Shown: positions 12,831 to 38,178 of the stretch, in pieces
How positions within the stretch are numbered: position 1 is the first letter of the stretch
Layout: every line of letters starts with the position of its first letter
Assembly (NCBI RefSeq): GCF_035084215.1
Contig: NC_090335.1
Location: 47,864,001-47,928,000 of the forward strand
Reading direction: 5' to 3'
DNA: 64,000 nt
DNA from: Heptranchias perlo
Taxonomy: Eukaryota
The notes under the pieces: generated by a model
What the model was told of the DNA's origin: nothing
Databases searched by the model: none
The model's input: the letters and a program-made list of their open reading frames with translations, nothing else
Position numbers and translations under genes: made by a program

Positions 12831-15113
12831 CTTTTAAGTACGACTGCTTGTTTGAGGGACGATAGCTTACTAAAATGTACAAACACTATTAGAAGTTATT
12901 CCCCTAGAGTTAATTCTGCTAAAGTTGGGCGTTCTTCCTTTGTGCAACAACAGAAATGAATTCTTCTGCATGTAAAAGCACCAGAAGTCACAATGATGCT
13001 GCATTTTGATTGTTATGCTGGTGCCAGAGGCAGCCTGACCCTGCCAGCAGTGCTGTGATATAAATGAGGCAACGCTAATGCTTCCATCAGGAAGGAGATG
13101 GTTTTTCCCCCTGTACTGCTGACGGCGAGCACTCCTGGCCACCATTAACAGTGCCACAGGCTGCTATTTTTTTCGGGCTGCACTCAACCTCTCGTGGAGG
13201 CCATTAATGTGCTTTTCTTTTTGCATTGCTAGCCTGCAGAAGGTGCTTGACCAGAAAGTTAAAGTCATGATCTTGGCTGTCAGCAACTGTGTATTCCTGA
13301 TCTTGCGTGTGAAGAGTTTTCCTGTTACCACCAGTGCTCTGAAATGTACTCCACTGTGTAATTGATGTACTTCAAAACATTAGAAGGGTCGGCATATTGC
13401 AGAACCATTTCTGTGGTATCAATGGGTTGGAAGGACTAACAGCGCTGACAGTTACCTTGTATAAATGAGGTCCATAAAGTGACAGACTGACCATTTCCTG
13501 TAAGTTGCATTCTGTCTGAGACAGCTGTCTAGTGCTATTGTCTGCACAATTACATGCACTGCAGTATTGTGCTTTCTTCAATTAATAGATCGGTATCTTG
13601 GCTGTCAATGGAAGCTATCATACTGTACAGAAGGGATCATATTTCCCACACAATCTTGCAAAATAAAAATGCAAACTGAAACTTAAAAAACATAAAATTC
13701 TGTCTAATTCAACAATTTGTCAGCGGAACCTATCAAACACTGCTCAAGGCAGGCTACATTCCACACAGTATAACAAATATCAAATGTCAGCTGTAGAGCA
13801 TGCTTTAATTGTGTTTGTGCAATCACTAATGAGTACCAATGCCAGAGTGTGCAGCGCTAACACTCCTGAGTGTTCCTGCCAACCCCATTATCTGTGATGT
13901 GGGTCTTCCAACCCATACTACCATTGAGTTTACATCTTTTCTCAATTTTCTCCTCTCCTGACCTCTGTGTGGGGATTCATGGACTGGGAAATAGTTTCAC
14001 AGGGACTGTCAGTAGACTATTCAACTGCAGGTAGCATCACAACTAAGCCCAGTCTTGTCCTTAGCCAATACCACACACATGCACTTTTCAACAGAAGTCT
14101 TTGGCTTGAAGTTGGGAGGAAGAACCCATTTAAAAAAAAAAAATTCCCCCTCCTCAGCCTAGGGTAAACGAGGTAGTGCTTCCATATCGGCACGGGTTAG
14201 GATCAGCTAACAATGCATGGCAGAGTTAGAGCCTGAGACCAAAGATCCCTTGATGGCTTAGTTGACTTACACTGTGAGCAGCTTAGTCATACAGACTAAG
14301 ACAGTTCTGGGTTTGATCCCCAGTCAGTGTTAGCTGATCTCGGATGAGGCTAGCAGCTGGGATGCTACAATTAGCAGTGACCCTGAGCTATAGAGGGAAG
14401 CTCATACAGCTGATCACTATCTGGTGACCCCTGCTGGAAGTGCATATGGGTCGATAACAGGTGAGGACAAGATCAGGCTCAGCTGTGATGCCCATCAATG
14501 TCAAATAGCCTGTTAGCATTCAGTGTCAAGTCTCACACATAACGTATTGGAAAGCAACCAGCACCTGCATAACTGTCCCAAGAAAGAGTCAAACACCTTC
14601 ATGAGGAGAAGAATTGACAGAGAAGAATAACCTGAAGCTTTCCTTGTTTTATGGCTCAGTGCAGTGCATTTATCCACTAAGACCTCAAAGGTATGTCTCC
14701 GACAGTGATAACACTATCTTAAGGAATATTCAAAGCATTCGTAAATCAATCAGTGTAATCAGCCCTGTCAGACAGGGCAAGGGTCATGAGCTGTATTTGT
14801 CTTGTTTCCACTCACTTTTTCTATTTTTCAACTCTAAATTCGACCCTTGGAAGGAGGCCATTCCTCCACCAGTACGACAAAATGCAGTGGAAGTATTTCA
14901 GTATTTATCTGGTGGTAAACCATTCTCCAAATAAATATCTGCTTGGTGCCACAAATTTCTGAATTTTGCAGTTTGAGCCGATGCACAGAGTGGAAGTTAA
15001 ATCGTGCTCTTGGTATTGAAAAGTTATGATGTGGAGATGCCGATGATGGACTGGGGTTGACAATTGTAAACAATTTTACAACACCAAGTTATAGTCCAGC
15101 AATTTTATTTTAA

Positions 15114-15154
15114 ATTCACAAGCTTTCGGAGATTTTCTCCTTCCTCAGGTAAAT
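15114..15154 (-). ncRNA. Minimal hammerhead ribozyme of PLE A (mirror copy on + strand at 19312-19352)
   Basis: ATTTAC-CTGAGGA-A-GGAGA(AAA)TCTCC-GAAAG-CTT-GTGAAT. Confidence 0.8.
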
Positions 15155-15403
15155 GTTTCAAGATCTCCTTGAAGCCTACGCATTTATACATATTGAATAA
15201 TACATGGTGTTTACAGACTGCCCCTGCAACTGCCCGTTGCCAAGGCAATCACCGTGTTCAGACAGAGAGGTGTCATCTGCAGAACCCCCGAATACACATT
15301 CAACAAAAAAACAAACAGGGAAAAAAAAACAGAGAAAAAAAAAAACACAGAGAGAGGCAGAAACATCCGGAAGGCAGAGAGAGCTAGCAAATGACCCATT
15401 ATA

Positions 15404-17783
15404 TTAAAAACAGATAACATTTGTTCGCTGGTGGGGTAACGTGTAGCGTGACATGAACCCAAGATCCCGGTTGAGGCCGTCCTCATGGGTGCGGAACTTG
15501 GCTATCAATTTCTGCTCGACGATTTTGCGTTGTCGTGTGTCTCGAAGGCCGCCTTGGAGTACGCTTACCCGAAGGTCGGTGGATGAATGTCCATGACTGC
15601 TGAAGTGTTCCCCGACTGGGAGGGAACCCTCCTGTTTGGCGATTGTTGCGCGGTGTCCGTTCATCCGTTGTCGCAGCGTCTGCATGGTCTCGCCAATGTA
15701 CCATGCTCTGGGGCATCCTTTCCTGCAACGTATGAGGTAGACAACGTTGGCCGAGTCACAGGAGTATGAACCATGCACCTGGTGGGTGGTGTCATCTCGT
15801 GTGATGGTGGTATCTGTGTCGATGATCTGGCATGTCTTGCAGAGGTTACCGTGGCAGGGTTGTGTGGCGTCGTGGACGCTGTTCTCTTGAAAGCTGGGTA
15901 GTTTGCTGCGAACGATGGTCTGTTTGAGGTTGGGTGGCTGTTTAAAGGCGAGTAGTGGAGGTGTGGGGATGGCCATAGCGAGGTGTTTGTCCTCATTGAT
16001 GACATGTTGAAGGCTGCGGAGAACATGGCGTAGTTTCTCCGCTCCGGGGAAGTACTGGACGACAAAGGGTACTCTGTTGGTTGCGTCCCGTGTTAGTCTC
16101 CTGAGGAGGTCTATGCGATTTTTTGCTGTGGCCCGTCGGAACTGTCGATCGATGAGTCGAGCGTCATATCCCGTTCTTACTAGGGCGTCTTTCAGCGTCT
16201 GTAGGTGTCCATCGCGTTCCTCCTCGTCTGAGCAGACCCTGTGTATTCGCAGGGCCTGTCCATAGGGGATGGCCTCTTTGACGTGGTTAGGGTGGAAGCT
16301 GGAAAAGTGGAGCATCGTGAGGTTGTCCGTGGGCTTGCGGTAGAGTGAGGTGCTGAGGTGCCCGTCTTTGATGGAGATTCGTGTGTCCAAGAAAGAAACT
16401 GATTCTGAGGAGTAGTCCATGGTGAGCTTGATGGTGGGATGGAACTTGTTGATGTTATCGTGTAGTCTCTTTAGTGATTCCTTGCCGTGGGTCCATAGAA
16501 AGAAAATGTCGTCGATGTATCTGGTGTATAGTGTTGGTTGGAGGTCTTGTGCAGTGAAGAAGTCCTGCTCGAACTTGTGCATGAAAATGTTGGCGTATTG
16601 GGGTGCGAATTTGGTCCCCATGGCTGTTCCGTGTGTTTGGGTAAAGAACTGGTTATCGAAGGTGAAGACATTGTGATCCAGGATGAAGCGGATGAGTTGT
16701 AGGATGGCTTCCGGAGATTGGCTGTTGTTGGTGTTGAGTATTGATGCTGTCGCAGCGATGCCGTCATCGTGGGGGATACTGGTGTATAGTGCCGAGACGT
16801 CCATCGTGGTGAGAAGTGTTCCTGGTTCAACTGGTCCGTGGGTACTGAGTTTTTGTAGGAAGTCTGTAGTGTCGCGACAGAAGCTGGGGGTTCCCTGTAC
16901 GATGGGTTTCAGGATGCCCTCGATGTATCCAGAGAGGTTCTCACACAGGGTTCCGTTGCCTGATACGATGGGACGTCCGGGTGTGTTGGCTTTGTGTATC
17001 TTTGGGAGGCAGTAGAAGTCTCCCACGCGGGGATTACGTGGGATGAGAATGCGTAGGATGCTTTGAAGGTCTGGATCGAAGGTCTTGATCAGTTTGTTGA
17101 GCTGGTGGGTGTGTTCTTTGGTCGGATCTGCGGGTAACCGTCTGTAGTGTTCCTGGTTGTCCAGTTGTCGGTATGCTTCTTTGCAATAGTCTGTTCTGTT
17201 CTGTATGACTATGGCTCCTCCTTTGTCCGCTGGTTTGATGACGATGTTGCGGTTGGTCTTGAGAGCGTTGATGGCGTTGCGTTGTGCTCGGGTGACATTC
17301 TGGACTGTCTTCTGAGTGCGGCTGATGAATCTGGCATTGACGCATTTCCTGACAGCTTGAGCATACATGTCCAGCTGAGGGCAGCGACCCTCCGGAGGAG
17401 TCCAGTTTGACTCTTTCCTCTTCGGTTGCTGTACCGCGGATCCCTCTGTCTGCTGTTCCGGATCGTCGATTGTCTCATTGGGTTCGCTGCTGAAATCTTG
17501 GGGTTTGTGGTAGAATTCCCGGAGCCTCATTCTCCTGATGAATTCCTCTGTGTCCGCCGCGAGACTAGTGGGGTCCATTTTGGTAGTGGGGCAGAAATTG
17601 AGCCCTCGGCTGAGAACTTCGATTTCGTCTGGTTGAAGGGTGTGGTCGGATAAATTGACAATAGACTTCCCTGTGGTTGCAACCGTGGTACCAGGGGAAG
17701 CTTGGTCGTTGCTGGTGGTGATGCCGAGTTTCTCAAGCTTCCTGCTCTTGGTTTTCATGTAGGCAGCGTAGTTCCGTTGCCTC
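15404..17783 (-). CDS. PLE polyprotein (RT + GIY-YIG endonuclease), open but 5'-truncated; Neptune-type Cys-rich linker
   Basis: IKPADKGG, FYCLPKIHK, PGRPIVS, MDVSALYTSIP, GTAMGT, RYIDDIF, FLD, LYRKPT, HP; linker PCHGNLCKTC; CDSANVVYLIRC..WYIGET..RMNGH; GLN. Confidence 0.95.
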
Positions 17784-19062
17784 CAGATCACGAACCCACT
17801 CAAGTCCACATACAACTCGGATTACGCTGAGAGACTCTGCCGCCGTACCTCTCGCACACTCCGCAACCATCTCATACACCAACTCTACAGCAGACGCCAC
17901 AACCTCGAAACCAAGATAGAGTCCATACTCTCAACCTGTACTCAGGACACAGCAGACCAGCTACGTTATACCGCCAAACAGACGAGGCAACGGAACTACG
18001 CTGCCTACATGAAAACCAAGAGCAGGAAGCTTGAGAAACTCGGCATCACCACCAGCAACGACCAAGCTTCCCCTGGTACCACGGTTGCAACCACAGGGAA
18101 GTCTACGAATCTCCATCAAAGACGGGCACCTCAGCACCTCACTCTACCGCAAGCCCACGGACAACCTCACGATGCTCCACTTTTCCAGCTTCCACCCTAA
18201 CCACGTCAAAGAGGCCATCCCCTATGGACAGGCCCTGCGAATACACAGGGTCTGCTCAGACGAGGAGGAACGCGATGGACACCTACAGACGCTGAAAGAC
18301 GCCCTAGTAAGAACGGGATATGACGCTCGACTCATCGATCGACAGTTCCGACGGGCCACAGCAAAAAATCGCATAGACCTCCTCAGGAGACTAACACGGG
18401 ACGCAACCAACAGAGTACCCTTTGTCGTCCAGTACTTCCCCGGAGCGGAGAAACTACGCCATGTTCTCCGCAGCCTTCAACATGTCATCAATGAGGACAA
18501 ACACCTCGCTATGGCCATCCCCACACCTCCACTACTCGCCTTTAAACAGCCACCCAACCTCAAACTACCCAGCTTTCAAGAGAACAGCGTCCACGACGCC
18601 ACACAACCCTGCCACGGTAACCTCTGCAAGACATGCCAGATCATCGACACAGATACCACCATCACACGAGATGACACCACCCACCAGGTGCATGGTTCAT
18701 ACTCCTGTGACTCGGCCAACGTTGTCTACCTCATACGTTGCAGGAAAGGATGCCCCAGAGCATGGTACATTGGCGAGACCATGCAGACGCTGCGACAACG
18801 GATGAACGGACACCGCGCAACAATCGCCAAACAGGAGGGTTCCCTCCCAGTCGGGGAACACTTCAGCAGTCATGGACATTCATCCACCGACCTTCGGGTA
18901 AGCGTACTCCAAGGCGGCCTTCGAGACACACGACAACGCAAAATCGTCGAGCAGAAATTGATAGCCAAGTTCCGCACCCATGAGGACGGCCTCAACCGGG
19001 ATCTTGGGTTCATGTCACGCTACACGTTACCCCACCAGCGAACAAATGTTATCTGTTTTTAA
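17781..19062 (+). pseudogene. PLE A right arm: longer N-terminus but RT core deleted
   Basis: Begins LQITNPLKSTYNSDYAERLCRR. A ~1280-nt deletion at 18105/18106 (equal to left arm 16382-17661) and a 21-nt deletion between CAAAC repeats at ~18565. Confidence 0.9.
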
Positions 19063-21393
19063 TATAATGGGTCATTTGCTAGCTCTCTCTGCCTTCCGGA
19101 TGTTTCTGCCTCTCTCTGTGTTTTTTTTTTTCTCTGTTTTTTTTTCCCTGTTTGTTTTTTTGTTGAATGTGTATTCGGGGGTTCTGCAGATGACACCTCT
19201 CTGTCTGAACACGGTGATTGCCTTGGCAACGGGCAGTTGCAGGGGCAGTCTGTAAACACCATGTATTATTCAATATGTATAAATGCGTAGGCTTCAAGGA
19301 GATCTTGAAACATTTACCTGAGGAAGGAGAAAATCTCCGAAAGCTTGTGAATTTAAAATAAAATTGCTGGACTATAACTTGGTGTTGTAAAATTGTTTAC
19401 TATTGAAAAGTTGAGTAGCTACAGCAGTACAACAGGGAAATCCAATCCTTATGACTGGAATTGAATCCCAGGCTCAGTTTTAATTCAAACCCATCTGTCC
19501 TTAAAAGCAGAAGAAGCCGAGATTTCCCAGTCAGCATTATTTTAATACCAGCAGTGATCCATTTAAAATAAATGGGTAGCCTGTCTAATGGAGGAAATGC
19601 ACCCAAAACATTAACGTGCCCCTTTAGAGATGCTGACCGAGTGCTGTATACATCCAGCATTTTCTGTTTTTTATTTCAGATTTCCAGTATTTGTATTTTT
19701 ATTTAAAATAACACCATAACACCAATCAGTAAATCTGGGATAGAGTCTCAGTCTTGGTGCCTTTCTATTAATAAAACCTGATCATCCTTCTGTTTTTCTT
19801 TTTCGTGCTGTTGATTTTTTTTTAAATGACTGAGCCTGATTGTCTGAGGAAGCAGAATTAATGGGCTAGATTTTCGCACCCCCGAGCAGGTGCGATCGTG
19901 GTGGGGGGGCTGTGAAAATCGGGGTTTCCCAGGGCAGGTCCGGACCCCGGCTCCAACCCGCCCACTTCCGGGTTCCCCAGTGACGCGCTGACATGCGCGC
20001 GCAGCCCCCGCATGTGGGACTCCCGCCTGCAATTAAAGCCGGCGAGATGCCACTTAAAGTAATTAACCAGGTACTTCAGGTCATTTACAGACCTGATTGA
20101 CCTGATATTTTAGGAGGGGTGGGATTTTCAGATCAACTGAGACTGTTTCCCGTACTGGGGGAAACACTCCCAGTTGAAATGGACGTGTTGCAGCCATCAG
20201 CCTGTGGCAGCTGTAAAGGTCCATTTGAAAGGTGGGGCGGGGGAGACCCTCACTCATTGCAGGAGGCCACTCTGTCACTTCGGACAAAGTTTAGCCTCCG
20301 CCACCCTCCTGCTAACAATAAAATTCACTAACTTGCACATTTACCCCGGGGTCCAGACACATTCACCTACCTTGCGACCCCCTCAAAAGTACATCTTCCG
20401 GATGGGGCCCGCGGTAGCTGCAGTCATGACCTCCTCGGAGGACGAACAGCTTCACCAGCCTCGCTGGCCATGCTGTCCACCTCTGACACGTGGAGCTGTG
20501 ACACATCCACCTGCACAGCAGGAGGGAGGGCAACCGCAGAGAGAGATGCGTCGCAGAGGGCACTACCCTCGCCACAGGGTCTACAGACCGAGGCTCAGCT
20601 TCCTGGACCTCTCTGAGCAGCAGTGCACACGGAGGCTCAGAGTCACTCGACATGTAGTCGTGGACATCTGCAGCCTCCTTCATTCTGAGCTGCTCCCGGC
20701 TCGCCCGAGCACCATCTTCTTACGTGTCGCAGTCAAAGTCACCACTGCCCTCAACAACCTCTGCTCTGCATCCTTCCAGGGTGCCACCGGGGACATCGCC
20801 GACTTCTCTCAGTCGTCTGCACAAAAGAGCCCTGCAAATACACCTACACCCACTCTGCAGTGACATAATGGGTTGCATCAGTTGTGGGTCTTCATAGTGA
20901 GCCTCAGGAAAGGGCATTATTGCACAAACCAGACAAGATTCGCAAAGACGTGGCAGTAGTGGTGCCAATATAATATGTAATGTGAGTTGATCAGAAATTA
21001 AATATAAGTAAAAACCATGACAAACCCTCAAACACCCTTGTGCATCCCCTTCATGCTCATGACACGTTTGCCTTACGCTTCCTACTGCACATATGTGATG
21101 CATGCCCTGTGGCTGCAGCACAGGTAGTGGCAGGTTGAGTGAGGCTGACTGTGAAAGAGATGCATGAGAGGGTGAGTATGAGATAGAGCCATGAGATTGT
21201 ATGAGGATTGGGTTGAGTGGTAGTGGCGGGATGAGTACTGGCGAGGTGAGTAAGTGCAGGTAAGATGAGGATGAGCTTTGAGTGGGTGTGAGGGGTGATG
21301 TGATAGAGTAGTGTTGGCAGTGCAGAAGGAGATGTGAGGTGGGGACGGTGATGTGGCAGACGGAGTGTAGGGGAATGAGTAAGTGTACTCACT

Positions 21394-23689: not shown

Positions 23690-25843
23690 ATATTGGGAGA
23701 GTCTGTTGGCAGGCAAAGGTACGTCTGGTAAGTGGGAGGCTTTCAAAAGTGTGTTAACCAGGGTTCAGGGTAAGCACATTCCTTATAAAGTGAAGGGCAA
23801 GGCTGGTAGAAGTAGGGAACCTTGGATAACTCGGGAGATTGAGGCACTAGTCAAAAAGAAGAAGGAGGCATATGACATGCATAGGCAGCTGGGATCAAGT
23901 GGATCCCTTGAAGAGTATAGAGATTGCCGGAATAGAGTTAAGAGAGAAATCAGGAGGGCAAAAAGGGGATATGAGATTGCTTTGGCAGATCAGGCAAAGG
24001 TGAATCCAAAGAGCTTCTACAAATACATAAAGGGCAAAAGGGTAACTAGGGAGAGAGTAGGGCCTCTTAAGGATCAACAAGGTCATCTATGTGCGGAACC
24101 ACAAGAGATGGGTGAGATCCTGAATGAATATTTCACATCGGTATTTACGGTTGAGAAAGGCATGGATGTTAGGGAACTTGGGGAAATAAATAGTGATGTC
24201 TTGAGGAGTGTACATATTACAGAGAGGGAGGTGCTGGAAGTCTTAACGCGCATCAAGGTAGATAAATCTCCGGGACCTGATGAAATGTATCCCAGGACGT
24301 TATGGGAGGTTAGGGAGGAAATTGCGGGTCCCCTAGCAGAGATATTTGAATCATCCACCGCTACAGGTGAGGTGCCTGAAGATTGGAGGGTAGCAAATGT
24401 TGTGCCTTTGTTTAAGAAGGGCGGCAGGGAAAAGCCTGGGAACTACAGACCAGTGAGCCTGACATCTGTAGTGGGTAAGTTGTTAGAGGGTATTCTGAGG
24501 GACAGGATCGACAGGCATTTGGAGAGGCAGGGACTAATTAGGAACAGTCAGCATGGTTTTGTGAGAGGAAAATCATGTCTCACGAATTTGATTGAGTTTT
24601 TTGAAGGGGTAACCAAGAAGATAGATGAGGGCTGTGCAGTCGACGTGGTCTACATGGACTTCAGCAAAGCATTTGACAAGGTACCGCATGGTAGGTTGAT
24701 ACATAAGGTTAAATCTCATGGGATCCAAGGTGAGGTAGCCAATTGGATACAAAATTGGCTTGACGACAGAAGACAGAGGGTGGTTGTAGAGGGTTGTTTT
24801 TCAAACTGGATGCCTGTGTCCAGCGGTGTGCCTCAGGGATCGGTGCTGGGTCCGCTGTTATTTGTTATTTATATTAATGATTTGGATGAGAATTTAGGAG
24901 GCATGGTTAGTAAGTTTGCAGATGACACCAAGATTGGTGGCATTGTGGACAGTGAAGAAGGTTATTTAGGATTGCAACGGGATCTTGATCAATTGGGCCA
25001 GTGGGCCGATGAATGGCAGATGGAGTTTAATTTAGATAAATGTGAGGTGATGCATTTTGGTAGATCAAATCGGGCCAGGACCTACTCCGTTAATGGTAGG
25101 GCGTTGGGGAGAGTTATAGAACAAAGAGATCTAGGAGTACAGATTCATAGCTCCTTGAAAGTGGAGTCACAGGTGGATAGGGTGGTGAAGAAGGCATTCG
25201 GCATGCTTGGTTTCATTGGTCAGAACATTGAATGCAGGAGTTGGGATGTCTTGTTGAAGTTGTACAGGGCATTGGTGAGGCCACACTTGGAGTACTGTGT
25301 ACAGTTCTGGTCACCCTATTATAGAAAGGATATTATTAAACTAGAAAGAGTGCAGAAAAGATTTACTAGGATGCTACCGGGACTTGATGGTTTGACTTAC
25401 AGGGAGAGGTTAGACAGACTGGGACTTTTTTCCCTGGAGAGTAGGAGGTTAAGGGGTGATCTTATAGAAGTCTATAAAATAATGAGGGGCATAGATAAGG
25501 TCGATAGTCAAAATCTTTTCCCAAAGGTAGGGGAGTCTATAACGAGGGGGCATAGATTTAAGGTGAGAGGGGAGAGATACAAAAGGGTCCAGAGGGGCAA
25601 TTTTTTCACTCAAAGGGTGGTGAGTGTCTGGAACGAGCTGCCAGAGGCAGTAGTAGAGGCGGGTACAATTTTGTCTTTTAAAAAGCATTTGGACAGTTAC
25701 ATGGGTAAGATGGGTATAGAGGGATATGGGCCAAGTGCAGGCAATTGGGACTAGCTTAGTGTTATAAACTGGGCGACATGGACATGTTGGGCCGAAGGGC
25801 CTGTTTCCATGTTGTAACTTCTATGATTCTATGATTCTATGAT
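23690..25843 (+). mobile_element. Young 5'-truncated CR1 LINE with an uninterrupted 682-aa ORF2 portion
   Basis: KSPGPDEM, PGNYRPVSLTS, QHGF, DFSKAFDKVPH, GVPQGSVLGP, KFADDTK. (CTATGATT)n tail. Splits a SINE S1 copy. Confidence 0.95.
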
Positions 25844-27149
25844 TTCACAATCCAGTGAGCCTGGCTGGAAAGTGGGCAATGGGGTGAGGGCATGACCTGG
25901 CTTGGCTGCAGTCAAATAGCCTGTCAACATTCATTGTCTAGGCTCACACTTGATCAGTGGGCCACTAGAGTGAGGTACATCAGGTAGCTGGTGTTGGTAG
26001 ACCCTTTACCCCAACATGAACTTCAAGGGTTGGGGGGAGTAGAATAATGGGGAGGGGAAAGAAATCAGGAATTGGGATCACTGGCATAAAAAGAGTTTAT
26101 GGATGTATATTATCATCACCTTTGCAGATGCACAGATGGATTGCACATTTTAGAGCTGCTGTATGAAACTGCTGTTTATCTCCACTTGACCAAATTGATT
26201 TTAAAATCCATTGAAATTTGTAACCAGCTGGAATGTATACAACAGAATGAGGCCTCTGTGGTCACTTTACAATTATTTTGAAATCCTGCTTTTCTAAGCT
26301 CATTAAAGGCTGTTTTCGGGTTAGACAATCAGCCCAGTGTTGTTTCACAAGATGATTTGAAAACCTTTTAATTTATTTGTATTTCAGATTGCTAAATAAA
26401 TAGGTCAAGGAATCAGTGCCATTGTCAGTGTATGTAGAGATTCACTGTAAAAGATAAAAATTTGTTTAAAATGATCATCCCAGTTGGTAGCATTTCCCAT
26501 GGTGATTTGTACTATACCCAGTGTCCCAACGTGGGCAGAAAAGGCTCTGTCACTCAAGTGCCAATTCTAACCTCACTGCATTGGACAAAATGTTGAAATA
26601 TAAAAGTATCCACTCAGCCGAGTTAGGTGGATATTTCCACTAGCTGCATCAAAATGAAAGTAGGCAGTGGAGTCATCAAAGAGGCATTTTCCTGTGTAAG
26701 TTTTGCAGTATCTATGCAGCCATGTCTTTTTTAAACCAATTCAGAGGCACAGACAGAGCTGTACAACAAAATACCCATCCAGTGAGGCCAGAGCTGCTTT
26801 GCAGTTTCTAGACCATAAAGCACACAGTGAATGTATTCCCAATACCATGGTGGGGCTAGAAGCAGCATCTTATCTCTTAGTCTTGTTATTAGTAGCACCA
26901 ACCAACAAGAGGAAAATAAGGTAATGGGCAAGGATGATGCTTTCACTGCTGCGCTCTTAGCTTCTCTGTCACAAACATTAACTCAATTCTTTGTTGGGCT
27001 CTCAGCAACTCACTTGGAAATAGTGCATTTTATTCACTCTTATTAAAATCATGCTGTCAAAAGTATTCTTGCTATTGGTTGTTGTCGGTGGAACACTCTG
27101 AATGCCAATTTCATTGTGAGAGGAAAGGATCTCTGTCCTTCACGATTAT

Positions 27150-27402
27150 TGTAAGGAGTCTTACAACACCAGGTTATAGTCCAACAGCTTTATTTGAAAT
27201 CACAAGCTTTCGAAGGCTTCCTCCTTCATCAGGTGAGTGTGGGATTCCATAAAGGTACAGCTGTACCTTTATGGAATCCCACACTCACCTGACGAAGGAG
27301 GAAGCCTCCGAAAGCTTGTGATTTCAAATAAAGCTGTTGGACTATAACCTGGTGTTGTAAGACTCCTTACATTTGTCCACCCCAGTCCATCACCAGCATC
27401 TC
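27150..27402. mobile_element. Mini PLE insertion forming a 222-bp palindrome (27150-27371) plus 3' tail
   Basis: Duplication CACGATTAT at 27141-27149 and 27403-27411. Centre GTACAG|CTGTAC. Two arm mismatches. Confidence 0.92.
27285..27321 (+). ncRNA. Minimal hammerhead ribozyme (mirror copy on - strand at 27200-27236)
   Basis: TCAC-CTGACGA-A-GGAGG(AAG)CCTCC-GAAAG-CTT-GTGA. Confidence 0.8.
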
Positions 27403-29519
27403 CACGATTATAACCTAGATAGGGTAAACATTTTAAATGAGGAGCAATAATGGATTGTGCCTGGTGCAGAGTGCCACAGACTGAGATATTCTGGACCTGA
27501 ATCCCATAGCTCACATTCACACTTGGGAATCCTCCAAAATGTGAAGCTTCTAAACTCAGCCCATTATAAGGTTCAGCACTGAGTGACTGAAGGGAGTGAA
27601 TCAGCAGGAGTTCTGTCTTGGGTTGTTCCGTAGCACCCCCTAGTGTCTGTTCACAGAGTGTTATCAAGGGTGCATGACCCTCAGTGATATAAAGGAAAGA
27701 AAACGGTGATACTGTAATACATACTTGAAAAGTTTTACAACTATTTTCTAATGATCTTTTGATCTGAAAGAAGTGAACTAGAAGTGGTTTCTAATAGTAT
27801 CACCACTTCCAGGTCTACTATTTGTGCAAAAACAGAGCAACCGTGGCAAGGGCTTTTCTGCTTCGGTGTGAATTTATCTCTTCTGGGATCTAACACAGGT
27901 TTGTCAAGAATCCAACATGCCTTCTAATCCATTTCATCACCATAAACATTAAAAATATACTATCAGCTCTTTTTAAGTGTTGACATAATTACAGGACATA
28001 AATTGCACTTCCTTGATTTAAATTTTTATATTTTTTCTAAATGACACTTTATTTATTAATCTGTGTTAATTAACCTTTTGATTATTGAATGATGTTTTCC
28101 AGTCTCGAAATGCTAAAAAATTGTGTTCAAATCTCCTTTCAAACTATTGGCTGTCTTATTTGAAATAATTTTCCACAGTTTCAACTCACAGCTTCCCCCT
28201 GCGATTTAAAGCAGTTCCAGTGCTCAGCCTTGTAACTGACAGTTAATTATTTATCTCTTGCTGGTCTGATGCAAACTTACACACCCTAGGGCTTGGGAAA
28301 CAGATACAAACCATAACTCCCTGAATGCCGACTCTAAATAAAAGATTCATGATGAGACTAATCCTTAAATTGTGCTTAAAAGTTTAAAGATTCAGTAGAT
28401 TCCCACCTCACTTCGCCCATTCCAGACAATGCTGTGTGTTTACAGAAGTAAAACCTTTTTTAGACAATAGCAAACAACATTTAATTAATGGCTGAATTGG
28501 CATCTTTTGAATTGGAAGGTTTTCAAAAGGTTTGTAATTTTATTCAGAGCTTGTGCTAATCTGGAGCTCAGGGTCTCTGGATCCTTCAATTCGTGCATTA
28601 TTATTTTAACGAGAGGAAACAACGATCCTTCAAGCACTGAGTCCTTTGATGTAGGAGTGCCCCAGTTTATTTCAGAGAAGTCTCACGGTGAGTTCTCAGC
28701 CATGTAGACTGCTGAACATTCAAGGTGGTACTCTTGAGGATTTGGGTCAAGGGTTTCAAACTCTTGTAAATTTAAAGCTACCAAGAAACTCTGCCATTAA
28801 CACTTTGATAAGCAGGGTCGAACAGGAATATGTTAAAACAAACACAAGAACAGAAATAAGATGCAGGGCCCAATTTTGCATAGTTAGTACTGGGATCAAA
28901 CTAGATTGCCACATCGTAGCCTCAAGTTATGTGTGCACGTGGTGCAGGTGATTGTTTCCAGTACAGTGTCTTCCCGAGGAAGAGATCAGATTGACGACCA
29001 TTTTCAATGTCCATTAGTCCACTTTCCTAACAATTTGAAGGAATACTCGATGATAATCCCAGTTTGGTGCTCTATCTAAAATCAGTTTCCCATTCATAAT
29101 ACTGGTGGAAAACAATCATCTTATCTTTATGTTTGTATTAGTATTAAGAGGAAGTGCTGTTAATGTTCATTGGAAATCATTACTTTATAATTCAATTGTA
29201 AACAATTTTACAACACCAAGTTATAGTCCAGCAATTTTATTTTAAATTCACAAGCTTTCGGAGGCTTCCTCCTTCGTCAGGTGAACGATGTGAAAATGAA
29301 ATCCTCGAGATGAAATCGCATTTATAATTCACAGAACAATGCTTGGTGAGTACAGACAGTTTTTTCAACTGCCCGTTGCCAAGGCAATCAGTGTGCAGAC
29401 AGACAGGTGTTACCTGCCAGGTCTCAGAATATACAAATCACCAAAAAAAAACAACAAACAAAAAAAAAACAGAGATAGAGAGGTAGAAACATAGAAAAGA
29501 CAGCAACTGACCCGTTATA

Positions 29520-31769
29520 TTAAAAACAGATAACATTTGTTCGCTGGTGGGGTAACGTGTAGCGTGACATGAACCCAAGATCCCGGTTGAGGCCATCCTC
29601 ATGGGTGCGGAACTTGGCTATCAATTTCTGCTCGACGATTTTGCGTTGTCGTGTGTCTCGAAGGCCGCCTTGGAGTATGCTTACCCGAAGGTCGGTGGAT
29701 GAATGTCCATGACTGCTGAAGTGTTCCCCGACTGGGAGAGAACCCTCCTGTTTGGCGATTGTTGCGCGGTGTCCGTTCATCCGTTGTCGCAGCGTCTGCA
29801 TGGTCTCGCCAATGTACCATGCTCTGGGGCATCCTTTCCTGCAACGTATGAGGTAGACAACGTTGGCCGAGTCACAGGAGTATGAACCATGCACCTGGTG
29901 GGTGGTGTCCTCTCGTGTGATGGTGGTATCTGTGTCGATGATCTGGCATGTCTTGCAGAGGTTACCGTGGCAGGGTTGTGTGGTGTCGTGGACGCTGTTC
30001 TCTTGAAAGCTAGGTAATTTGCTGCGAACGATGGTCTGTTTGAGGTTGGGTGGCTGTTTAAAGGCGAGTAGTGGAGGTGTGGGGATGGCCATAGCGAGGT
30101 GTTTGTCCTCATTGATGACATGTTGAAGACTGCGGAGAACATGGCGTAGTTTCTCCGCTCCGGGGAAGTACTGGACGACAAAGGGTACTCTGTTGGTTGC
30201 GTCCCGTGTTAGTCTCCTGAGGAGGTCTATGCGATTTTTCGCTGTGGCCCGTCGGAACTGTCGATCGATGAGTCGAGCGTCATATCCCGTTCTTACGAGG
30301 GCGTCTTTCAGCGTCTGTAGGTGTCCATCGCGTTCCTCCTCGTCTGAGCAGACCCTGTGTATTCGCAGGGCCTGTCCATAGGGGATGGCCTCTTTGACGT
30401 GGTTAGGGTGGAAGCTGGAAAAGTGGGGCATCGTGAGGTTGTCCGTGGGCTTGCGGTAGAGTGAGGTGCTGAGGTGCCCGTCTTTGATGGAGATTCGTGT
30501 GTCCAAGAAAGAAACTGATGCTGAGGAGTAGTCCATGGTGAGCTTGATGGTGGGATGGAACTTGTTGATGTTATTGTGTTGTCTCTTTAGTGATTCCTCA
30601 CCGTGGGTCCATAGAAAGAAAATGTCGTCGATGTATCTGGTGTATAATGTTGGTTGGAGGTCCTGTGCAGTGAAGAAGTCCCGCTCGAACTTGTGCATGA
30701 AATTGTTGGCGTATTGGGGTGCGAATTTGGTCCCCATGGCTGTTCCGTGTGTTTGGGTAAAGAACTGGTTATCGAAGGTGAAGACAATGTGATCCAGGAT
30801 GAAGCAGATGAGTTGTAGGATGGCGTCTGGAGATTGGCTGTTGTTGGTGTTGAGTATTGATGCTGTTGCAGCGATGCCGTCATCGTGGGGGATACTGGTG
30901 TAGAGTGCCGAGACGTCCATCGTGATGAGAAGTGTTCCTGGTTCAACTGGTCCGTGGGTACTGAGTTTTTGTAGGAAGTCTGTAGTGTCGCGACAGAAGC
31001 TGGGGGTTCCCTGTACGATGGGTTTCAGGATGCCCTCGATGTATCCAGAGAGGTTCTCACACAGGGTTACGTTGCCTGATACGATAGGACGTCCGGGTGT
31101 GTTGGCTTTGTGTATCTTTGGGAGGCAGTAGAAGTCTCCCACGCGGGGAGTACGTGGGATGAGAGTGCGTAGGATGCTTTGAAGGTCTGGATCGAAGGTC
31201 TTGATCAGTTTGTTGAGCTGGTGGGTGTGTTCTTTGGTCGGATCTGCGGGTAACCGTCTGTAGTGTTCCTGGTTGTCCAGTTGTCGGTATGCTTCTTTGC
31301 AATAGTCCGTTCTGTTCTGTATGACTATGGCTCCTCCTTTGTCCGCTGGTTTGATGACGATGTTGCGGTTGGTCTTGAGAGCGTTGATGGCGTTGCGTTG
31401 TGCTCGGGTGACATTCTGGACTGTCTTCTGAGTGCGGCTGATGAATCTGGCATTGACGCATTTCCTGACAGCTTGAGCATACATGTCCAGCTGAGGGCAG
31501 CGACCCTCCGGAGGAGTCCAGTGTGACTCTTTCCTTTTCGGTTGCTGTACCGCGGATCCCTCTGTCTGCTGTTCCAGATCGTTGATTGTCTCATTGGGTT
31601 CGCTGCTGAAATCTTGGGGTTTGTGGTAGAATTCCCGGAGCCTCATTCTCCTGATGAATTCCTCTGTGTCTGCCGCGAGACTAGTGGGGTCCATTTTGGT
31701 AGTGGGGCAGAAATTGAGCCCTCGTCTGAGAACTTCGATTTCGTCTGGTTGAAGGGTGTGGTCAGACAA
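29520..31769 (-). CDS. PLE RT + GIY-YIG ORF, open (749 aa) but 5'-truncated
   Basis: Same motif set as element A. Confidence 0.9.
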   Translation of the reverse strand: MSDHTLQPDEIEVLRRGLNFCPTTKMDPTSLAADTEEFIRRMRLREFYHKPQDFSSEPNETINDLEQQTEGSAVQQPKRKESHWTPPEGRCPQLDMYAQAVRKCVNARFISRTQKTVQNVTRAQRNAINALKTNRNIVIKPADKGGAIVIQNRTDYCKEAYRQLDNQEHYRRLPADPTKEHTHQLNKLIKTFDPDLQSILRTLIPRTPRVGDFYCLPKIHKANTPGRPIVSGNVTLCENLSGYIEGILKPIVQGTPSFCRDTTDFLQKLSTHGPVEPGTLLITMDVSALYTSIPHDDGIAATASILNTNNSQSPDAILQLICFILDHIVFTFDNQFFTQTHGTAMGTKFAPQYANNFMHKFERDFFTAQDLQPTLYTRYIDDIFFLWTHGEESLKRQHNNINKFHPTIKLTMDYSSASVSFLDTRISIKDGHLSTSLYRKPTDNLTMPHFSSFHPNHVKEAIPYGQALRIHRVCSDEEERDGHLQTLKDALVRTGYDARLIDRQFRRATAKNRIDLLRRLTRDATNRVPFVVQYFPGAEKLRHVLRSLQHVINEDKHLAMAIPTPPLLAFKQPPNLKQTIVRSKLPSFQENSVHDTTQPCHGNLCKTCQIIDTDTTITREDTTHQVHGSYSCDSANVVYLIRCRKGCPRAWYIGETMQTLRQRMNGHRATIAKQEGSLPVGEHFSSHGHSSTDLRVSILQGGLRDTRQRKIVEQKLIAKFRTHEDGLNRDLGFMSRYTLPHQRTNVICF

Positions 31770-31798
31770 GTTCCGTTGCCTCGTCTGTCTGGCGGTAC

Positions 31799-34153
31799 AT
31801 GAAAACCAAGAGCAGGAAGCTTGAGAAACTCGGCATCACCACCAGCATCGACCAAGCTTCCCCTGGTACCACGGTTGCAACCACAGGGAAGTCTATCGTC
31901 AATTTGTCCGACCACACCCTTCAACCAGACGAAATCGAAGTTCTCAGCCGAGGGCTCAATTTCTGCCCCACTACCAAAATGGACCCCACTAGTCTTGCGG
32001 CGGACACAGAGGAATTCATCAGGAGAATGAGGCTCCGGGAATACTTCCACAAACCCCAAGATTTCAGCAGCGAACCCAATGAGACAATCAACGATCCGGA
32101 ACAGCAGACAGAGGGATCCGCGGTACAGCAACCGAAGAGGAAAGAGTCACACTGGACTCCTCCGGAGGGTCGCTGCCCTCAGCTGGACATGTATGCTCAA
32201 GCTGTCAGGAAATGCGTCAATGCCAGATTCATCAGCCGCACTCAGAAGACAGTCCAGAATGTCACCCGAGCACAACGCAACGCCATCAACGCTCTCAAGA
32301 CCAACCGCAACATCGTCATCAAACCAGCGGACAAAGGAGGAGCCATAGTCATACAGAACAGAACGGACTATTGCAAAGAAGCATACCGACAACTGGACAA
32401 CTAGGAACACTACAGACGGTTACCCGCAGATCCGACCAAAGAACACACCCACCAGCTCAACAAACTGATCAAGGCCTTCGATCCAGACCTTCAAAGCATC
32501 CTACGCACTCTCATCCCACGTACTCCCCGCGTGGGAGACTTCTACTGCCTCCCAAAGATACACAAAGCTAACACACCCGGACGTCCTATCGTATCAGGCA
32601 ACGTAACCCTGTGTGAGAACCTCTCTGGATACATCGAGGGCATCCTGAAACCCATCGTACAGGGAACCCCCAGCTTCTGTCGCGACACTACAGACTTCCT
32701 ACAAAAACTCAGTACCCACGGACCAGTTGAACCAGGAACACTTCTCACCACGATGGACGTCTCAGCACTCTACACCAGTATCCCCCACGATGACGGCATC
32801 GCTGCGACAGTATCAATACTCAACACCAACAACAGCCAATCTCCAGACGCCATCCTACAACTCATCCGCTTCATCCTGGATCACAATGTCTTCACCTTCG
32901 ATAACCAGTTCTTCACCCAAACACACGGAACAGCCATGGGGACCAAATTCGCACCCCAATGCGCCAACATTTTCATGCACAAGTTCGAGCAGGACTTCTT
33001 CACTGCACAGGACCTCTAACCAACACTATACACCAGATACATCGACGACATTTTCTTTCTATGGACCCACGGCGAGGAATCACTAAAGAGACAACACGAT
33101 AACATCAACAAGTTCCATCCCACCATCAAGCTCACCATGGACTACTCCTCAGAATCAGTTTCTTTCTTGGACACACGAATCTCCATCAAAGACGGGCACC
33201 TCAGCACCTCACTCTACCGCAAGCCCACGGACAACCTCACGATGCTCCACTTTTCCAGCTTCCACCCTAACCACGTCAAAGAGGCCATCCCCTATGGACA
33301 GGCCCTGCGAATGCACAGGGTCTGCTCAGACGAGGAGGAACGCGATGGACACCTACAGACGCTGAAAGACGTCCTAGTAAGAACGGGATATGACGCTCGA
33401 CTCATCGATCGACAGTTCCGACGGGCCACAGCGAAAAATCGCATAGACCTCCTCAGGAGACTAACATGGGACGCAACCAACAGAGTACCCTTTGTCGTCC
33501 AGTACTTCCCCGGAGCGGAGAAACTACGCCATGTTCTCCGCAGCCTTCAACATGTCATCAATGACGACGAACACCTCGCTATGGCCATCCCCACACCTCC
33601 ACTACTCGCCTTTAAACAGCCACCCAACCTCAAACAGACCATCGTTCGCAGCAAAATACCTAACTTTCAGGAGAACAGCGTCCACGACACCACACAACCC
33701 TGCCACGGTAACCTCTGCAAGACATGCCAGATCATCGACACAGATACCACCATCACACGAGAGGACACCACCCACCAGGTGCATGGTTCATACTCCTGTG
33801 ACTCGGCCAACGTTGTCTACCTCATACGTTGCAGGAAAGGATGCCCCAGAGCATGGTACATTGGCGAGACCATGCAGACGCTGCGACAACGGATGAACGG
33901 ACACCGCGCAACAATCACCAAACAGGAGGGTTCCCTCCCAGTCGGGGAACACTTCAGCAGTCAAGGACATTCAGCCACTGACCTTCGGGTAAGCGTACTC
34001 CAAGGCGGCCTTCGAGACACATGACAACGCAAAATCGTCGAGCAGAAATTGATAGCCAAGTTCCGCACCCATGAGGACGGCCTCAACCGGGATCTTGGGT
34101 TCATGTCACGCTACACGTTACCCCACCAGCGAACAAATGTTATCTGTTTTTAA
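31799..34153 (+). pseudogene. PLE B right-arm ORF with three nonsense mutations
   Basis: CAG>TAG (32402), CAA>TAA (33017) and CGA>TGA (34022) relative to the other copies. Confidence 0.9.
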
Positions 34154-34369
34154 TATAACGGGTCAGTTGCTGTCTTTTCTATGTTTCTACCTCTCTATCT
34201 CTGGTTTTTTTTTGGTGATTTATATATTCGGAGACCTTGTAGGTAACACCTGTCTGTCTGCACACTGATTGCCTTGGCAACGGGCAGTTGAAAAAACTGT
34301 CTGTAATCACCAAGCATTGTTCTGTGATTTATAAATGCGATTTCATTTCGAGGATTTCATTTCCACAAC

Positions 34370-34410
34370 ATTCACCTGAGGAAGGAGGAAGCTTCCGAAA
34401 GCTTGTGAAT
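34370..34410 (+). ncRNA. Minimal hammerhead ribozyme of PLE B (counterpart on - strand at 29247-29285)
   Basis: ATTCAC-CTGAGGA-A-GGAGG(AAG)CTTCC-GAAAG-CTT-GTGAAT. Confidence 0.78.
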
Positions 34411-36129
34411 TTAAAATAAAATTGCTGGACTATAACTTGGTGTTGTAAAATTGTTTACAATTGTCAACCCCAGTCCATCACCAGCATCTCCACATCAGGT
34501 ATATGAAATGTTTGTATTATATCCGGTACATTGTCAAAAACAACCAGAAATGCAGTTATAGATTTTGTCCTTCTGAATGTGGATCGTGTCCCAAGAGAGT
34601 ATTTTGAGCTATGTAGCACCAGAGTGAAGTAATGATGGTTACAGTATCGCAGTAGAAGTATTGGCACAATAGTAAAGTGTATTGGCTTGAAAGCAATTTT
34701 CGTATAGCATATTGATATCACTGTGCTAAGTGAATCTGGTGACAACACTCGTATGACAACTCAAGTGGAGTTAGCACTTTGTGTGGGCTGGTTAGGAATG
34801 TTGCGGAAGGTGATCCCTTCGGAGAGCACAATGTACTCTGGTCTCTGCTTGCAGTATTCTAAAAAAGATTCATGCATCCAAAAAAGTCTCTTACTCTAAC
34901 ATAAAGAGCTATCTATTGAAGTATTTGGGTCAGTGTCATTCTTTGTCTGATTACGCTCCTGTGAAGCACCTTGGGATGTTTTACTATTTTAATGTCGCTA
35001 TATAAATGCAAGTTGTTGTAACATTTATTAATATAAATAGTGTATATCTGTATCAATTCAAATAATTTATATTTCAAGTTCGCTATTTACAAAATGTACT
35101 TAATGTAAATAAAATCTTTGTTCAATTTATGTAATTTTATATCATTATTGTACTTCAATGTATGAATAATTATCAAAATATATTTACATATATAATTGCA
35201 TACAGTGACATTTATATATAATTACATACATATCATCTGGTTTACTGTGAGCAATGCCACAGAAGATCCACCAGTATTAATAGTACTTTGTCCTTGATGA
35301 CCAGTTACGAGCCGTATGAAATAAATTAAAGTTGATTGAAGTGAGCACCTAATGTGCATGTGGGAGCTCTTGCCTGTTTCCAACTATTCTGCTCATCATC
35401 ATGCAGAATGAAGACAAGCCACAGAAGAAATACAGGGGGAAAAAAACTCTCATACACTCAGATTAAGCAATGGAGCACAATGGTGATATAATTGGATTTT
35501 TCTTGGTTACAATACATTTTCATACATTAAGTTGTATTCATGGTATACAGTATACAAGGTACAATGTTGTAGACAGTAAATTCTCCTTGTGAATGACCCT
35601 AGGAATTGACTCTGGGGAAAAGTGACACTGTTAGAACGCATTGCCGCACTTACGTGCAGAGCCAATAAACGGGGTTTTGGTTGTGATACCAAAGCTTTAT
35701 GAGTTACACCAGTCAGATAGGATAAGTTTTTTCTTCCTGCATGGTACTTATGTTATGTGGGGAATATTGCTAGAATGTTGACCAGCTTTTGGCAGTATGC
35801 TAGGGATGTAGGCCAGATTTTTTTTTAAAATCCCTTGGTTTTGTCTCAGTGAGTCTATGTGATTTTATCAGTCTGGACTAGTTTCAGTAGTGCGTCAACC
35901 CACATTGACTGCCTGGGGATTGGATACTCATGCTGCTACTTCTGTGCATTGCACCAGCTGGTTCAGAAAATCTTAGGATCAAGTCAGGCTCTTAGAAATT
36001 GTGAACACCACAAATGGTTTCTGCCTTGTGAATTGGAGTAAGTTAAACTTGTAGGCGCTCATTGTATGCAATCAAGTTTATTGGTTGCTCTGATATGCAA
36101 TATCTGACTGCAGCTAGAAGGAAAACCAG

Positions 36130-38178
36130 GGGCCCGATATTAGGAGGGCGGTGGGTTCGCAGTGGGGGGTCGACTGGGCACGTGGGTAACACGCCCAGTG
36201 AAATCGGGGTGCTCCGCACGCAATCGCAGGCTAATTGCAGCCACTTACCTGTGTTTCCGGGTTTCGCGCTGGAAAGCTGCGCAGCGGGCGGACTGCGCAT
36301 GCGCAGCATTGGCTGTCAGCTGGAGGAGCCCTATTTAAAGGGGCAGTCCTCCACTGACTGATGCTGCAGGAAATAGGAAAAATTACAGCATGGAGCAGCC
36401 AGCGGAAAGGCTGCGCCCAGGTTTAATGAAGCCTCACTCCAGGTATTATTGGATGGGGTGGGGGGGGGTGGAGGACAGAGACCTTCCCCCCCCCCCCACC
36501 GGCAGGCGGGAGGGAGCGGCCTGCCTCTGCCACCAAGAAGGCCTGTCTCGAGGAGGCAGAGGAGGTCACCTGCACCACCAACATATCGTGCACCTGCATA
36601 CAGTGCAGGAGGCGCTTCAATGACCTAAGTAGGTCAGCCGAAGTGAGTACACTTACTCATTCCCCTACACTCCGTCTGCCACATCACCATCCCCACCCCA
36701 CATCTTCTGCATTGCCAACACTACTCTGTCACATCACTCCTCACACCCACTCAAAGCTCATCCTCATCTTACCTGCACTTACTCACCTCGCCAGTACTCA
36801 TCCCGCCACTACCACTCAACCCAATCCTCATATAATCTCATGGCTCTATCTCATACTCACCCTCTCATGCATCTCTTTCACGGTCAGCCTCACTCAACCT
36901 GCCATTACCTGTGCTTCAGCCACAGGGCATGCATCACATATGTGCAGTAGGAAGCGTAAGGCAAACGTGTCATAAGCATGAAGGGGATACACAAGGGTGT
37001 TTGAGGGTTTGTCATGGTTTTTACTTATATTTGATTTCTGATCAACTCACATTACATATTATATTGTCACCACTACTGCCACGTCTTTGCGAATCTTGTC
37101 TGGTTTGTGCAATAATGCCCTTTCCTGAGGCTCACTATAAAGATCCACAACTGATGCCACCCATTGTGTCACTGCAGAGTGGGTGTAGGTGTATTTGCAG
37201 GGCTCTTTTGTGCAGACGACTGAGAGACATTGGCGATGTCCCCGGTGGCACCCTGGAAGGATGCGGAGCAGAAGTTGTTGAGGGCAGTGGTGACTTTGAC
37301 CGCGACAGGTAAGAAGATGGTGCTCGGTCCAGCCAGGAGCAGCTCGGCATGAAGGAGGCTGCAGATGTCCACGACTACATGTTGAGTGACTCTAAGCCTC
37401 CATGTGCACTGCTGCTCAGAGAGGTCCAGGAAGCTGAGCCTCGGTCTGTAAACCCTGTGGCGAGGGTAGTGCCTTCTGCGACGCATCTCTCTCTGCTGTT
37501 GCCATCCCTCCTGCTGTGCAGATGGATGTGTCACAGCACTGTGTTGTGGGGCTCCACATGTCAGAGGTGGACGGCATGGGTGATGCTGTTCGTCCTCCGA
37601 GGAGGTCATGACTGCAGCTATGGCGGCCCCCATCTGGAAGCTGTACATTTGAGGGGATCCGCATGGTAGGTACATATCTCTGGACCCCGGGGTAAGTGTG
37701 CAAGTTGGTGAATTTTATTGTTAGGAGGAGGGTGGTGGAGGCCTAACTTTGTCCAAAGTGACAGAGTGGCCTCCTGCAATGAGTGAGGGTCTCTTTTCCC
37801 CCCCCCCCAACCTGTCAAATGGACCTTTGCAGCTGCCACAGGCTGAAGGCTGCAACACGTCAATTTCAACTGGGAGTGTTTCCCCCAGTACGGGAAACAG
37901 TCCCAGTTGTTTGGAAAATCCCACCCCTCCTAAAATATCATGTTAATCAGGTCTCTAAACGACCTGAAATACCTAAATGATTTCCTTAAGTGGCACCCCA
38001 CCGGCTTTAATTGCCGGCGGGAATCCCACATGCGGGGGCTGCACGCGCATGTCAGTGCGTCACTGGGGAACCCAGAAGTGGGCGGGTTGGAGCGGGCTCC
38101 AGACCCGCCCCGGGAATCCCCGATTTTCGCAGCCCCCCCGCCATGAACGCACCACTCGGGGGTGCGAAAATCGAGCCC
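36130..38178. mobile_element. Non-autonomous Harbinger H2 (same subfamily as H1, opposite orientation)
   Basis: Ends GGGCCCGATATTAGG and CGAAAATCGAGCCC, flanks CAG/GAG. Frameshifted Myb exon on +, transposase stub on -. Confidence 0.9.

What the first reader, a model, noticed from the sequence alone, without database searches (positions are those of the whole stretch)
29193..34497. The two arms of PLE B are a mosaic: shared variants in the 5' half, different subfamily signatures in the 3' half
Seen: both arms share changes absent from element A (ESHWT, GNVTL, KRQH). They differ in the 3' part: left INEDKHL/IAKQ/SHGHSST (like A) versus right INDDEHL/ITKQ/SQGHSAT. They also differ in the UTR (indels; CTGACGA versus CTGAGGA core) and near the apex (REFYH versus REYFH). 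Element A's arms look identical. Inference: B used two different RNA templates, possibly followed by arm-to-arm gene conversion, as the two-cDNA model predicts.
Basis: partly seen in the sequence, partly recalled or inferred. Interest (0 to 1): 0.7.

Follow-up and report, generated by a model that had tools for sequence, protein, structure and literature searches.

The report
Two-parent Penelope palindrome lacking target duplication
The two mirror-image halves of this Penelope-like jumping gene, in what relatives indicate is a shark genome, match one parent copy in their inner part and two different parent copies in their outer part, likely because two RNA templates were used during insertion, although recombination with a neighbouring copy fits almost as well and most differences between the halves are ordinary ageing.

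Summary
B (29193-34497) is a head-to-head Penelope-like insertion of known layout: one arm with the 34-nt tail, one without. Its arms differ at 58 of 2,563 positions, against 0 of 1,417 for element A. Most differences look like private decay, but at 12 sites both letters occur in other copies. Eleven of these lie in the outer 0.9 kb (11 of 25 outer vs 1 of 33 inner; free-breakpoint p=0.004). Both arms also share two near-private substitutions in the inner part. So B is a real mosaic with a switch in 33094-33564. New here: B is the only one of five family insertions in the window without a target-site duplication, and all segments carry the same load of private changes. Best reading (0.45, inferred): two RNAs at insertion, with a template switch. 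Close rival (0.3): recombination with a neighbouring copy that deleted the DNA between. Late arm-to-arm conversion is disfavoured. One locus cannot decide; the empty site or a genome-wide census would.

The parts
29193..31772 (-). Left arm of B: RT + GIY-YIG ORF (open frame of 771 codons, 29520-31835), 3' UTR, ends without tail
   Evidence: Pfam RVT_1
31773..31797 (-). [quoted passage not shown]
31796..34463 (+). Right arm of B: same ORF with three in-frame stops (32402, 33017, 34022) and 3' UTR; 31796-31900 has no partner in the left arm
34464..34497 (+). 34-nt tail, right arm only; 97-99 contigs of other copies diverge at 34497; no target-site duplication at either end of B
   Evidence: (table 7)
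32604..33093 (+). Minimal single-parent segment: two near-private transversions shared by both arms (32604 = left 31069, G290V; 33093 = left 30580, L453Q; residue numbers of element A's translation)
33094..33564 (+). Interval holding the switch from one parent to two (left-arm equivalent 30109-30579); which arm switched is not determined
33565..34463 (+). Outer haplotype of the right arm (D610/E612, G33670, Q743/A747, UTR letters at 34238, 34240, 34328, 34363, 34368, 34380)
29193..30108 (-). Outer haplotype of the left arm (E610/K612, H743/S747 as in A; UTR matched at 6 of 6 displayed sites and by a 16-nt insertion in a contig of run X9)
32043..32046 (+). REYFH vs REFYH (left 31627-31630): possible third patch; non-majority share 1.3-2.3% at 32043 and 13-18% at 32046
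34370..34410 (+). Minimal hammerhead-like motif (CTGANGA...GAAA, short palindromic helix III); left-arm copy 29246-29286 on minus
   Evidence: sequence; fold; description in PMC4209133; no Rfam match
15027..19401 (.). Comparator element A: same family, arms identical where paired, 12-nt TSD TATTGAAAAGTT, tail on the left arm only

Best explanation
B is a head-to-head Penelope-like insertion whose arms derive from one parent in the inner 1.5 kb and from two different parents in the outer 0.9 kb, most likely because two element RNAs from sister source copies were primed at the two target ends in one event and one cDNA switched onto the other arm's template. Shown: the two outer haplotypes exist in other copies; the inner segment shares two near-private changes; private changes are equally dense in all segments; no TSD; one tail and one tail-less end. 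Inferred: left and right 3' ends were primed on RNA 1 and RNA 2; after 0.9-1.4 kb one strand moved to RNA 1 (copy choice) or annealed to a fold-back copy of cDNA 1; priming at two separate nicks lost the DNA between them and so left no TSD; each arm then gained about 0.5-1.1% private changes.
For: 12 of 58 arm differences have both letters in other copies, 11 of them from 33565 outward (1 of 33 inner vs 11 of 25 outer; permutation with free breakpoint p=0.0038, ORF only p=0.022). All 11 right-arm-only letters in 32047-33564 are private (at most 0.94% in X1, except CpG site 33467), where the outer-ORF rate predicts about 13 shared ones. 32604T 0.01/0.05/0% and 33093A 0.3/0.3/0.4% in three runs; V 0 of 9 and Q 0 of 18 close proteins. 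Private load inner 32/3,328 vs outer 14/1,798, p=0.54, as expected if all parts were laid down together. Tail/no-tail ends as in A and E. B lies in one intron between two collinear Ig-domain exons and the other four family copies in the window keep their TSDs, so no reciprocal partner is present. PMC11167929 (main text read): a PLE protein nicks and extends both strands, starts at two RNA sites and is predicted to dimerise. L1 analogues with two synchronous cDNAs joined at their 5' ends: 10.1101/2024.08.27.596794 (passages).
Against: No TSD is exactly what recombination between two insertions predicts, and 4 of 4 other insertions have one. Arms of A, E and D each share one haplotype (0 of 1,417; 2 CpG changes plus an end base in 113; 0 of 49), so two-parent arms are not the rule. 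Equal age is a weak test (14 outer changes). One search showed 40 of 155 variant rows, gives shares without linkage, and its residual share includes third letters; left-arm-only letters were checked only through A, proteins and run X9. Incompatible site pairs in the family (69 of 172) do not rise with distance (p=0.52), so frequent crossing-over in the family is not shown. One locus.
Confidence: 0.45

Rival explanations
1. An ordinary one-template palindrome recombined with a second, same-orientation PLE copy in the same intron (single-strand annealing or unequal crossover in 33094-33564 or its left-arm equivalent, after or during insertion). The DNA between them was deleted, so the two flanks come from different insertion sites.
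For: Explains inner identity, outer second parent and the missing TSD in one step. The intron holds four family insertions in 50 kb. Ectopic recombination is reported for proviruses (PMC4422153, passages) and TSD-less target deletions for L1 (PMC10760644, passages). That long palindromes are break-prone is from the listing of PMC7999016.
Against: Needs a second young copy of at least 0.9 kb, of like age and with a tail, close by; only A is that long here. Outer and inner private loads are equal. Does not explain REYFH. Collinear exons and intact TSDs of the other copies exclude a translocation or a reciprocal inversion inside the intron.
Confidence: 0.3
2. One-template insertion, then non-reciprocal gene conversion of one arm's outer 0.83 kb or more (or several short patches) from copies elsewhere in the genome.
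For: Very many potential donors (75,138 contigs laid from X1); could also give the REYFH patch; the right arm's Q743/A747 occurs among close proteins only with the shorter C-terminus (7 of 7), which looks like a patch.
Against: Conversion keeps the TSD, and B has none; needs one long or several tracts on one element.
Confidence: 0.12
3. One reading: two RNAs gave two wholly different arms, and arm-to-arm conversion later homogenised the middle.
For: Different (32046) - same (32604, 33093) - different (33565 outward) needs only one tract; intra-locus conversion is reported for LTRs (PMC4422153, passages).
Against: No drop in arm divergence in the shared segment (13 differences in 490 nt; neighbours 20 and 5 nt from 33093), so any conversion must be about as old as the insertion, which merges with the best explanation.
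Confidence: 0.08
4. Self-copy followed by ageing alone, or an assembly chimera.
For: 39 non-shared one-arm ORF differences are 33 transitions, 15 CpG losses, 16 synonymous, 20 missense, 3 stops, close to neutral rates; all differences together are evenly spread.
Against: 12 hits on family-polymorphic letters (binomial p 3e-5 at the most generous rate tried); 4 of 6 shared ORF sites are transversions vs 6 of 39 (p=0.016); a contig of another organism carries the left UTR haplotype. The right junction is present with 0 differences in runs X1 and X2, though that sample may be the assembly's source.
Confidence: 0.05

Closest known systems
Canonical EN+ Penelope-like element insertion unit (Craig et al. 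2021, PMC8557442; Arkhipova et al. 2013, PMC3846280; passages read)
   Same: RT plus C-terminal GIY-YIG ORF, inverted 5'-truncated copy joined head to head, 30-40-nt tail at one end only, hammerhead-like motif in the terminal repeat; TSD-less copies also occur in A. vaga.
   Different: The passages read do not compare the two arms by haplotype. Here they have two parents in the outer part. The self-priming idea of PMC3846280 predicts identical arms and cannot alone give B.
Poseidon of Anolis carolinensis in vitro (Frangieh et al. 2024, PMC11167929; main text and part of methods read)
   Same: Both target strands cut and extended; two RT start sites that match tail and no-tail ends; predicted dimer.
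   Different: Other clade; one template RNA was used, and use of two RNAs or switching between them was not tested in the text read.
L1 bridges from two synchronous insertions (bioRxiv 10.1101/2024.08.27.596794) and L1 target-site deletions (PMC10760644); passages read
   Same: Two 5'-truncated cDNAs in inverted orientation joined at their 5' ends; chimeras between two nascent cDNAs; loss of a matching TSD.
   Different: Somatic human L1 with APE endonuclease and poly(A) priming; bridges join distant breakpoints, whereas B sits inside one intron.
Discordant LTRs of proviruses by conversion or ectopic recombination (PMC4422153, passages read)
   Same: Two repeats that should be identical at insertion group with different relatives.
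   Different: Direct LTRs made identical by strand transfer; B's arms are inverted whole-ORF copies whose mode of synthesis is still open.

Membership tests
EN+ Penelope-like element | Single ORF with RT followed by a C-terminal GIY-YIG endonuclease carrying a CCHH motif with two Cys between GIY and YIG | tested here: met
   RVT_1 E 6e-9; VVYLIRCRKGCPRAWYIG ... GH ... EHF read by eye; the Pfam GIY-YIG model did not hit this ORF
EN+ Penelope-like element | Inverted 5'-truncated copy at the 5' end and 30-40-nt tail at one end | tested here: met
   definition in PMC8557442
EN+ Penelope-like element | Hammerhead motif in the terminal repeat | tested here: inconclusive
   core motifs and helices I and II present (z about -1.7 to -2.1); no Rfam match at E<=1; cleavage not testable
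EN+ Penelope-like element | Short target-site duplication (usual, not universal) | tested here: not met
   B none; A 12, D 12, E 9, F 11 nt; TSD-less PLE copies are described in PMC3846280
Neptune/Nematis-type PLE | CX2-5CxxC linker between RT and C-terminal EN | tested here: met
   PCHGNLCKTC; definition in PMC8557442
Neptune clade | Placement on an RT tree with named references | not tested
   no named reference sequences were fetched
Pure self-primed (fold-back) palindrome | Arms share one haplotype, differing only by private changes | tested here: not met
   12 shared-polymorphic differences
Two-RNA insertion product | Both parents joined at the time of insertion, flanks adjacent at the empty site | not testable with these tools
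   no genome held; no empty allele among the rows shown
Recombination-deletion chimera of two insertions | No TSD, and intervening DNA or two elements at the ancestral locus | tested here: inconclusive
   no TSD; ancestral locus not available; flanks gave no continuity clue

The most novel reading that the evidence does not exclude
A Penelope integration complex can hold two RNAs from different source loci and switch between them within one insertion, a copy-choice recombination like that of retroviruses. This would rule out self-priming as the only origin of inverted PLE arms and supply the route by which the family swaps UTRs and ORF segments. If REYFH is a true haplotype, the right arm switched twice.
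Probability: 0.35. Interest if true: 0.68.

Novelty: new variant of a known kind. Interest (0 to 1): 0.42.

Why it matters
How Penelope-like elements build their inverted arm (self-priming on one template or separate priming of two cDNAs) is unresolved in the papers read. Arm haplotypes, read together with presence or absence of a TSD, give a simple genome-scale test. B shows that the signal exists and can be told from ageing, and also that recombination between copies can mimic it. It also warns against dating PLE palindromes by raw arm divergence: about a fifth of B's differences predate the insertion.

Tried and rejected
No whole genome is held, so no copy-by-copy nucleotide census was possible. 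Earlier scan notes by sequence, by place and by the first word set returned nothing. Rfam: 0 matches. Resemblance of the left flank to the tail: not significant (p=0.17), rejected. Flank similarity search for a target deletion: only an unrelated SINE-like end at 34954-35019. Four-gamete incompatibility vs distance: no trend (p=0.52), so not used as support. No RNA holder is on record; X5 is only a guess at RNA and was not used for expression. Junction-contig depth is below flank depth (48 vs 72; 7.6 vs 15.6), which could mean heterozygosity, but contig depth is too crude. Region 36129-43103 is not a PLE and was dropped. Literature searches (open-licence PMC and bioRxiv only) listed no study comparing haplotypes of PLE inverted arms; only listings were seen for most hits and subscription papers are not covered. 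No supplements were opened; those of PMC11167929 (Figs S1-S2) may bear on insertion structure.

Full report
What is there. Self-comparison of the window shows B as an inverted repeat, 29193-34463, plus 34 nt to 34497. Each arm encodes an RT (Pfam RVT_1) followed by a GIY-YIG-type domain with a C-x4-C-x2-C linker, the Neptune/Nematis-type layout of PMC8557442 (passages). The left frame is open for 771 codons; the right has three stops. The best named relatives are Heptranchias perlo proteins at 93-99.7% and other sharks at about 77-86%; the window's own species was not determined. The right arm ends with the tail, the left without; A and E show the same one-tail layout. B lies in an intron of about 50 kb between two Ig V-set exons on the plus strand (7744-8205 and 58472-58969; the name IGSF3-like is recalled).

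Checking the observation. Every motif quoted is present. The arms differ at 58 of 2,563 aligned positions plus one 17-nt indel; A's arms differ at 0 of 1,417. In the ORF, 22 sites are left-only, 23 right-only, 18 A-only and 1 three-way; in the UTR 59 are A-only. The three ORFs are thus about equidistant, while both B arms share one UTR type against A. All 58 differences together are evenly spread (KS p=0.24).

Are the differences private? No genome is held, so two proxies were used. First, proteins: of 266 retrieved (only 15 of 54 members of the largest cluster were listed), 24 are at least 90% identical to A. At 610/612, 15 of 21 have D/E like the right arm and 3 have E/K like the left arm and A. 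At 743/747, 7 of 15 have Q/A and 7 have H/S. At 728, 1 of 15 has T. V290 is in 0 of 9 and Q453 in 0 of 18. Second, contigs of four runs laid on the right arm (X1, X2, X5 are one sample, and X1 and X2 hold B's right junction with 0 differences; X9 is another organism; 40 of 155 variant rows were shown). Both letters are common at 33565 and 33569 (right letter 72-81%) and at 34238, 34240, 34328, 34363, 34368 (17-84%). One X9 contig carries the left arm's letter at 6 of 6 displayed UTR sites and a 16-nt insertion at 34203. Another X9 contig has 17 differences, all accounted for by listed rows, so it carries the right arm's G at 33670 and none of the left-only letters in 32849-33963. At 34380, D and E have C and A and F have G. 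At 32046 the non-majority share is 13-18%, and F is the state in 12 of 13 more distant proteins; the letter itself is inferred. That gives 12 shared sites. The right-arm share is a residual that includes third letters, and contigs give no linkage.

Pattern. One of 33 inner differences and 11 of 25 outer ones (33565 outward) are shared; permutation with a free breakpoint gives p=0.0038, and 0.022 for the ORF alone. This classification depends on which rows were shown and the UTR is more variable, so the ORF figure is the safer one. All 11 right-only letters in 32047-33564 were shown and are private (at most 0.94% in X1, apart from CpG site 33467), where the outer-ORF rate would give about 13 shared ones (P(0)=0.015 even at the lower bound). 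In that inner stretch both arms carry 32604T (0.01, 0.05, 0%) and 33093A (0.30, 0.30, 0.44%), two non-CpG transversions nearly absent elsewhere. So the inner 1.5 kb has one parent and the outer 0.9 kb has two. The 39 non-shared one-arm ORF differences look neutral: 33 transitions, 15 CpG losses, 16 synonymous, 20 missense, 3 stops. ITKQ belongs to this class. At 11 other displayed polymorphic sites the arms agree, so both parents belong to one young group.

Two further facts. B has no TSD (best exact repeat 6 nt, not at the junctions), whereas A, D, E and F have 12, 12, 9 and 11 nt. Private changes are equally dense inside and outside the switch (32/3,328 vs 14/1,798, p=0.54), and the 490 nt between the two shared rare letters hold 13 arm differences. 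The sharing is therefore about as old as the insertion, which argues against late arm-to-arm conversion.

Mechanism. PMC11167929 shows a PLE protein nicking and extending both strands and starting at two RNA sites that correspond to tail and no-tail ends; PMC3846280 had proposed self-priming. Self-priming alone gives identical arms, as in A, D and E, and cannot give B. My best reading (0.45) is that two RNAs were primed at the two target ends and one nascent strand switched to the other arm's template in 33094-33564 or the left-arm equivalent; separate nicks would also lose the TSD. L1 offers analogues. Equal age of all parts, the canonical tail pairing and the lack of a reciprocal partner in the intron favour it. 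The close rival (0.3) is recombination of an ordinary palindrome with a second copy nearby, deleting the DNA between: it predicts the missing TSD outright but needs a long, like-aged, tailed neighbour and leaves REYFH unexplained. Ectopic conversion (0.12) leaves the missing TSD unexplained. These weights are judgement, not computed. Against my reading: the family's 69 of 172 incompatible site pairs show no distance trend (p=0.52), and 3 of 3 other two-armed insertions here are concordant.

Known versus new. The element and its layout are known; earlier scan notes (unchecked AI notes) say the same for other genomes. Searches listed no comparison of PLE arm haplotypes, within the limits of the library. 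The mosaic is real and gives a usable test of an open question, but a single TSD-less locus cannot separate two-RNA insertion from recombination, hence a middling score.

Noticed in passing
window 31796-31797 and 17784 (mapped on 17969-18006): Three of the four long arms (B left, A left, B right) have their 5' ends within about 37 nt of the same ORF position, which suggests a family-wide stop or turn point.
   Followed up: partly
window 15061-15398 vs 29193-29514: A's ORF is as close to B as B's arms are to each other, yet its UTR differs at 59 sites starting just after the stop; contigs in all four runs diverge at 34176-34177 into an A-like UTR. The family appears to swap UTRs at this point.
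   Followed up: partly
window 34119: A T/A polymorphism (A in 58-66% of depth in three runs) matches two C-terminal lengths, 805 vs 794 residues, among close proteins.
   Followed up: partly
window 7413-7600, 27148-27405, 46537-46641: Three stump-sized insertions of the same family (D, E, F), each with its own 3'-end haplotype and a 9-12-nt TSD; D and E are short palindromes.
   Followed up: partly
window 19863-21830, 36129-38180, 38820-40872, 41051-43103: Four related ~2-kb elements with similar GGGC-starting ends; one frame has a weak Myb/SANT-like hit (E 6e-4, below cut-off). PIF/Harbinger-like by recall. The last two form an inverted pair 93.7% alike, about 180 nt apart.
   Followed up: no
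window 7744-8205, 58472-58969, 63103-63735: Ig-domain exons of a host gene on the plus strand, IGSF3-like by recall.
   Followed up: partly
run X9: Another organism holds copies of this family about 98-99% identical to B's right arm over 479, 1,115 and 144 nt, which means a close relative, slow evolution or horizontal transfer.
   Followed up: no
window 23667-25754: A 695-codon LINE RT frame (RVT_1 E 3e-34) and several LINE 3' fragments at 11152, 51265 and 61727.
   Followed up: no
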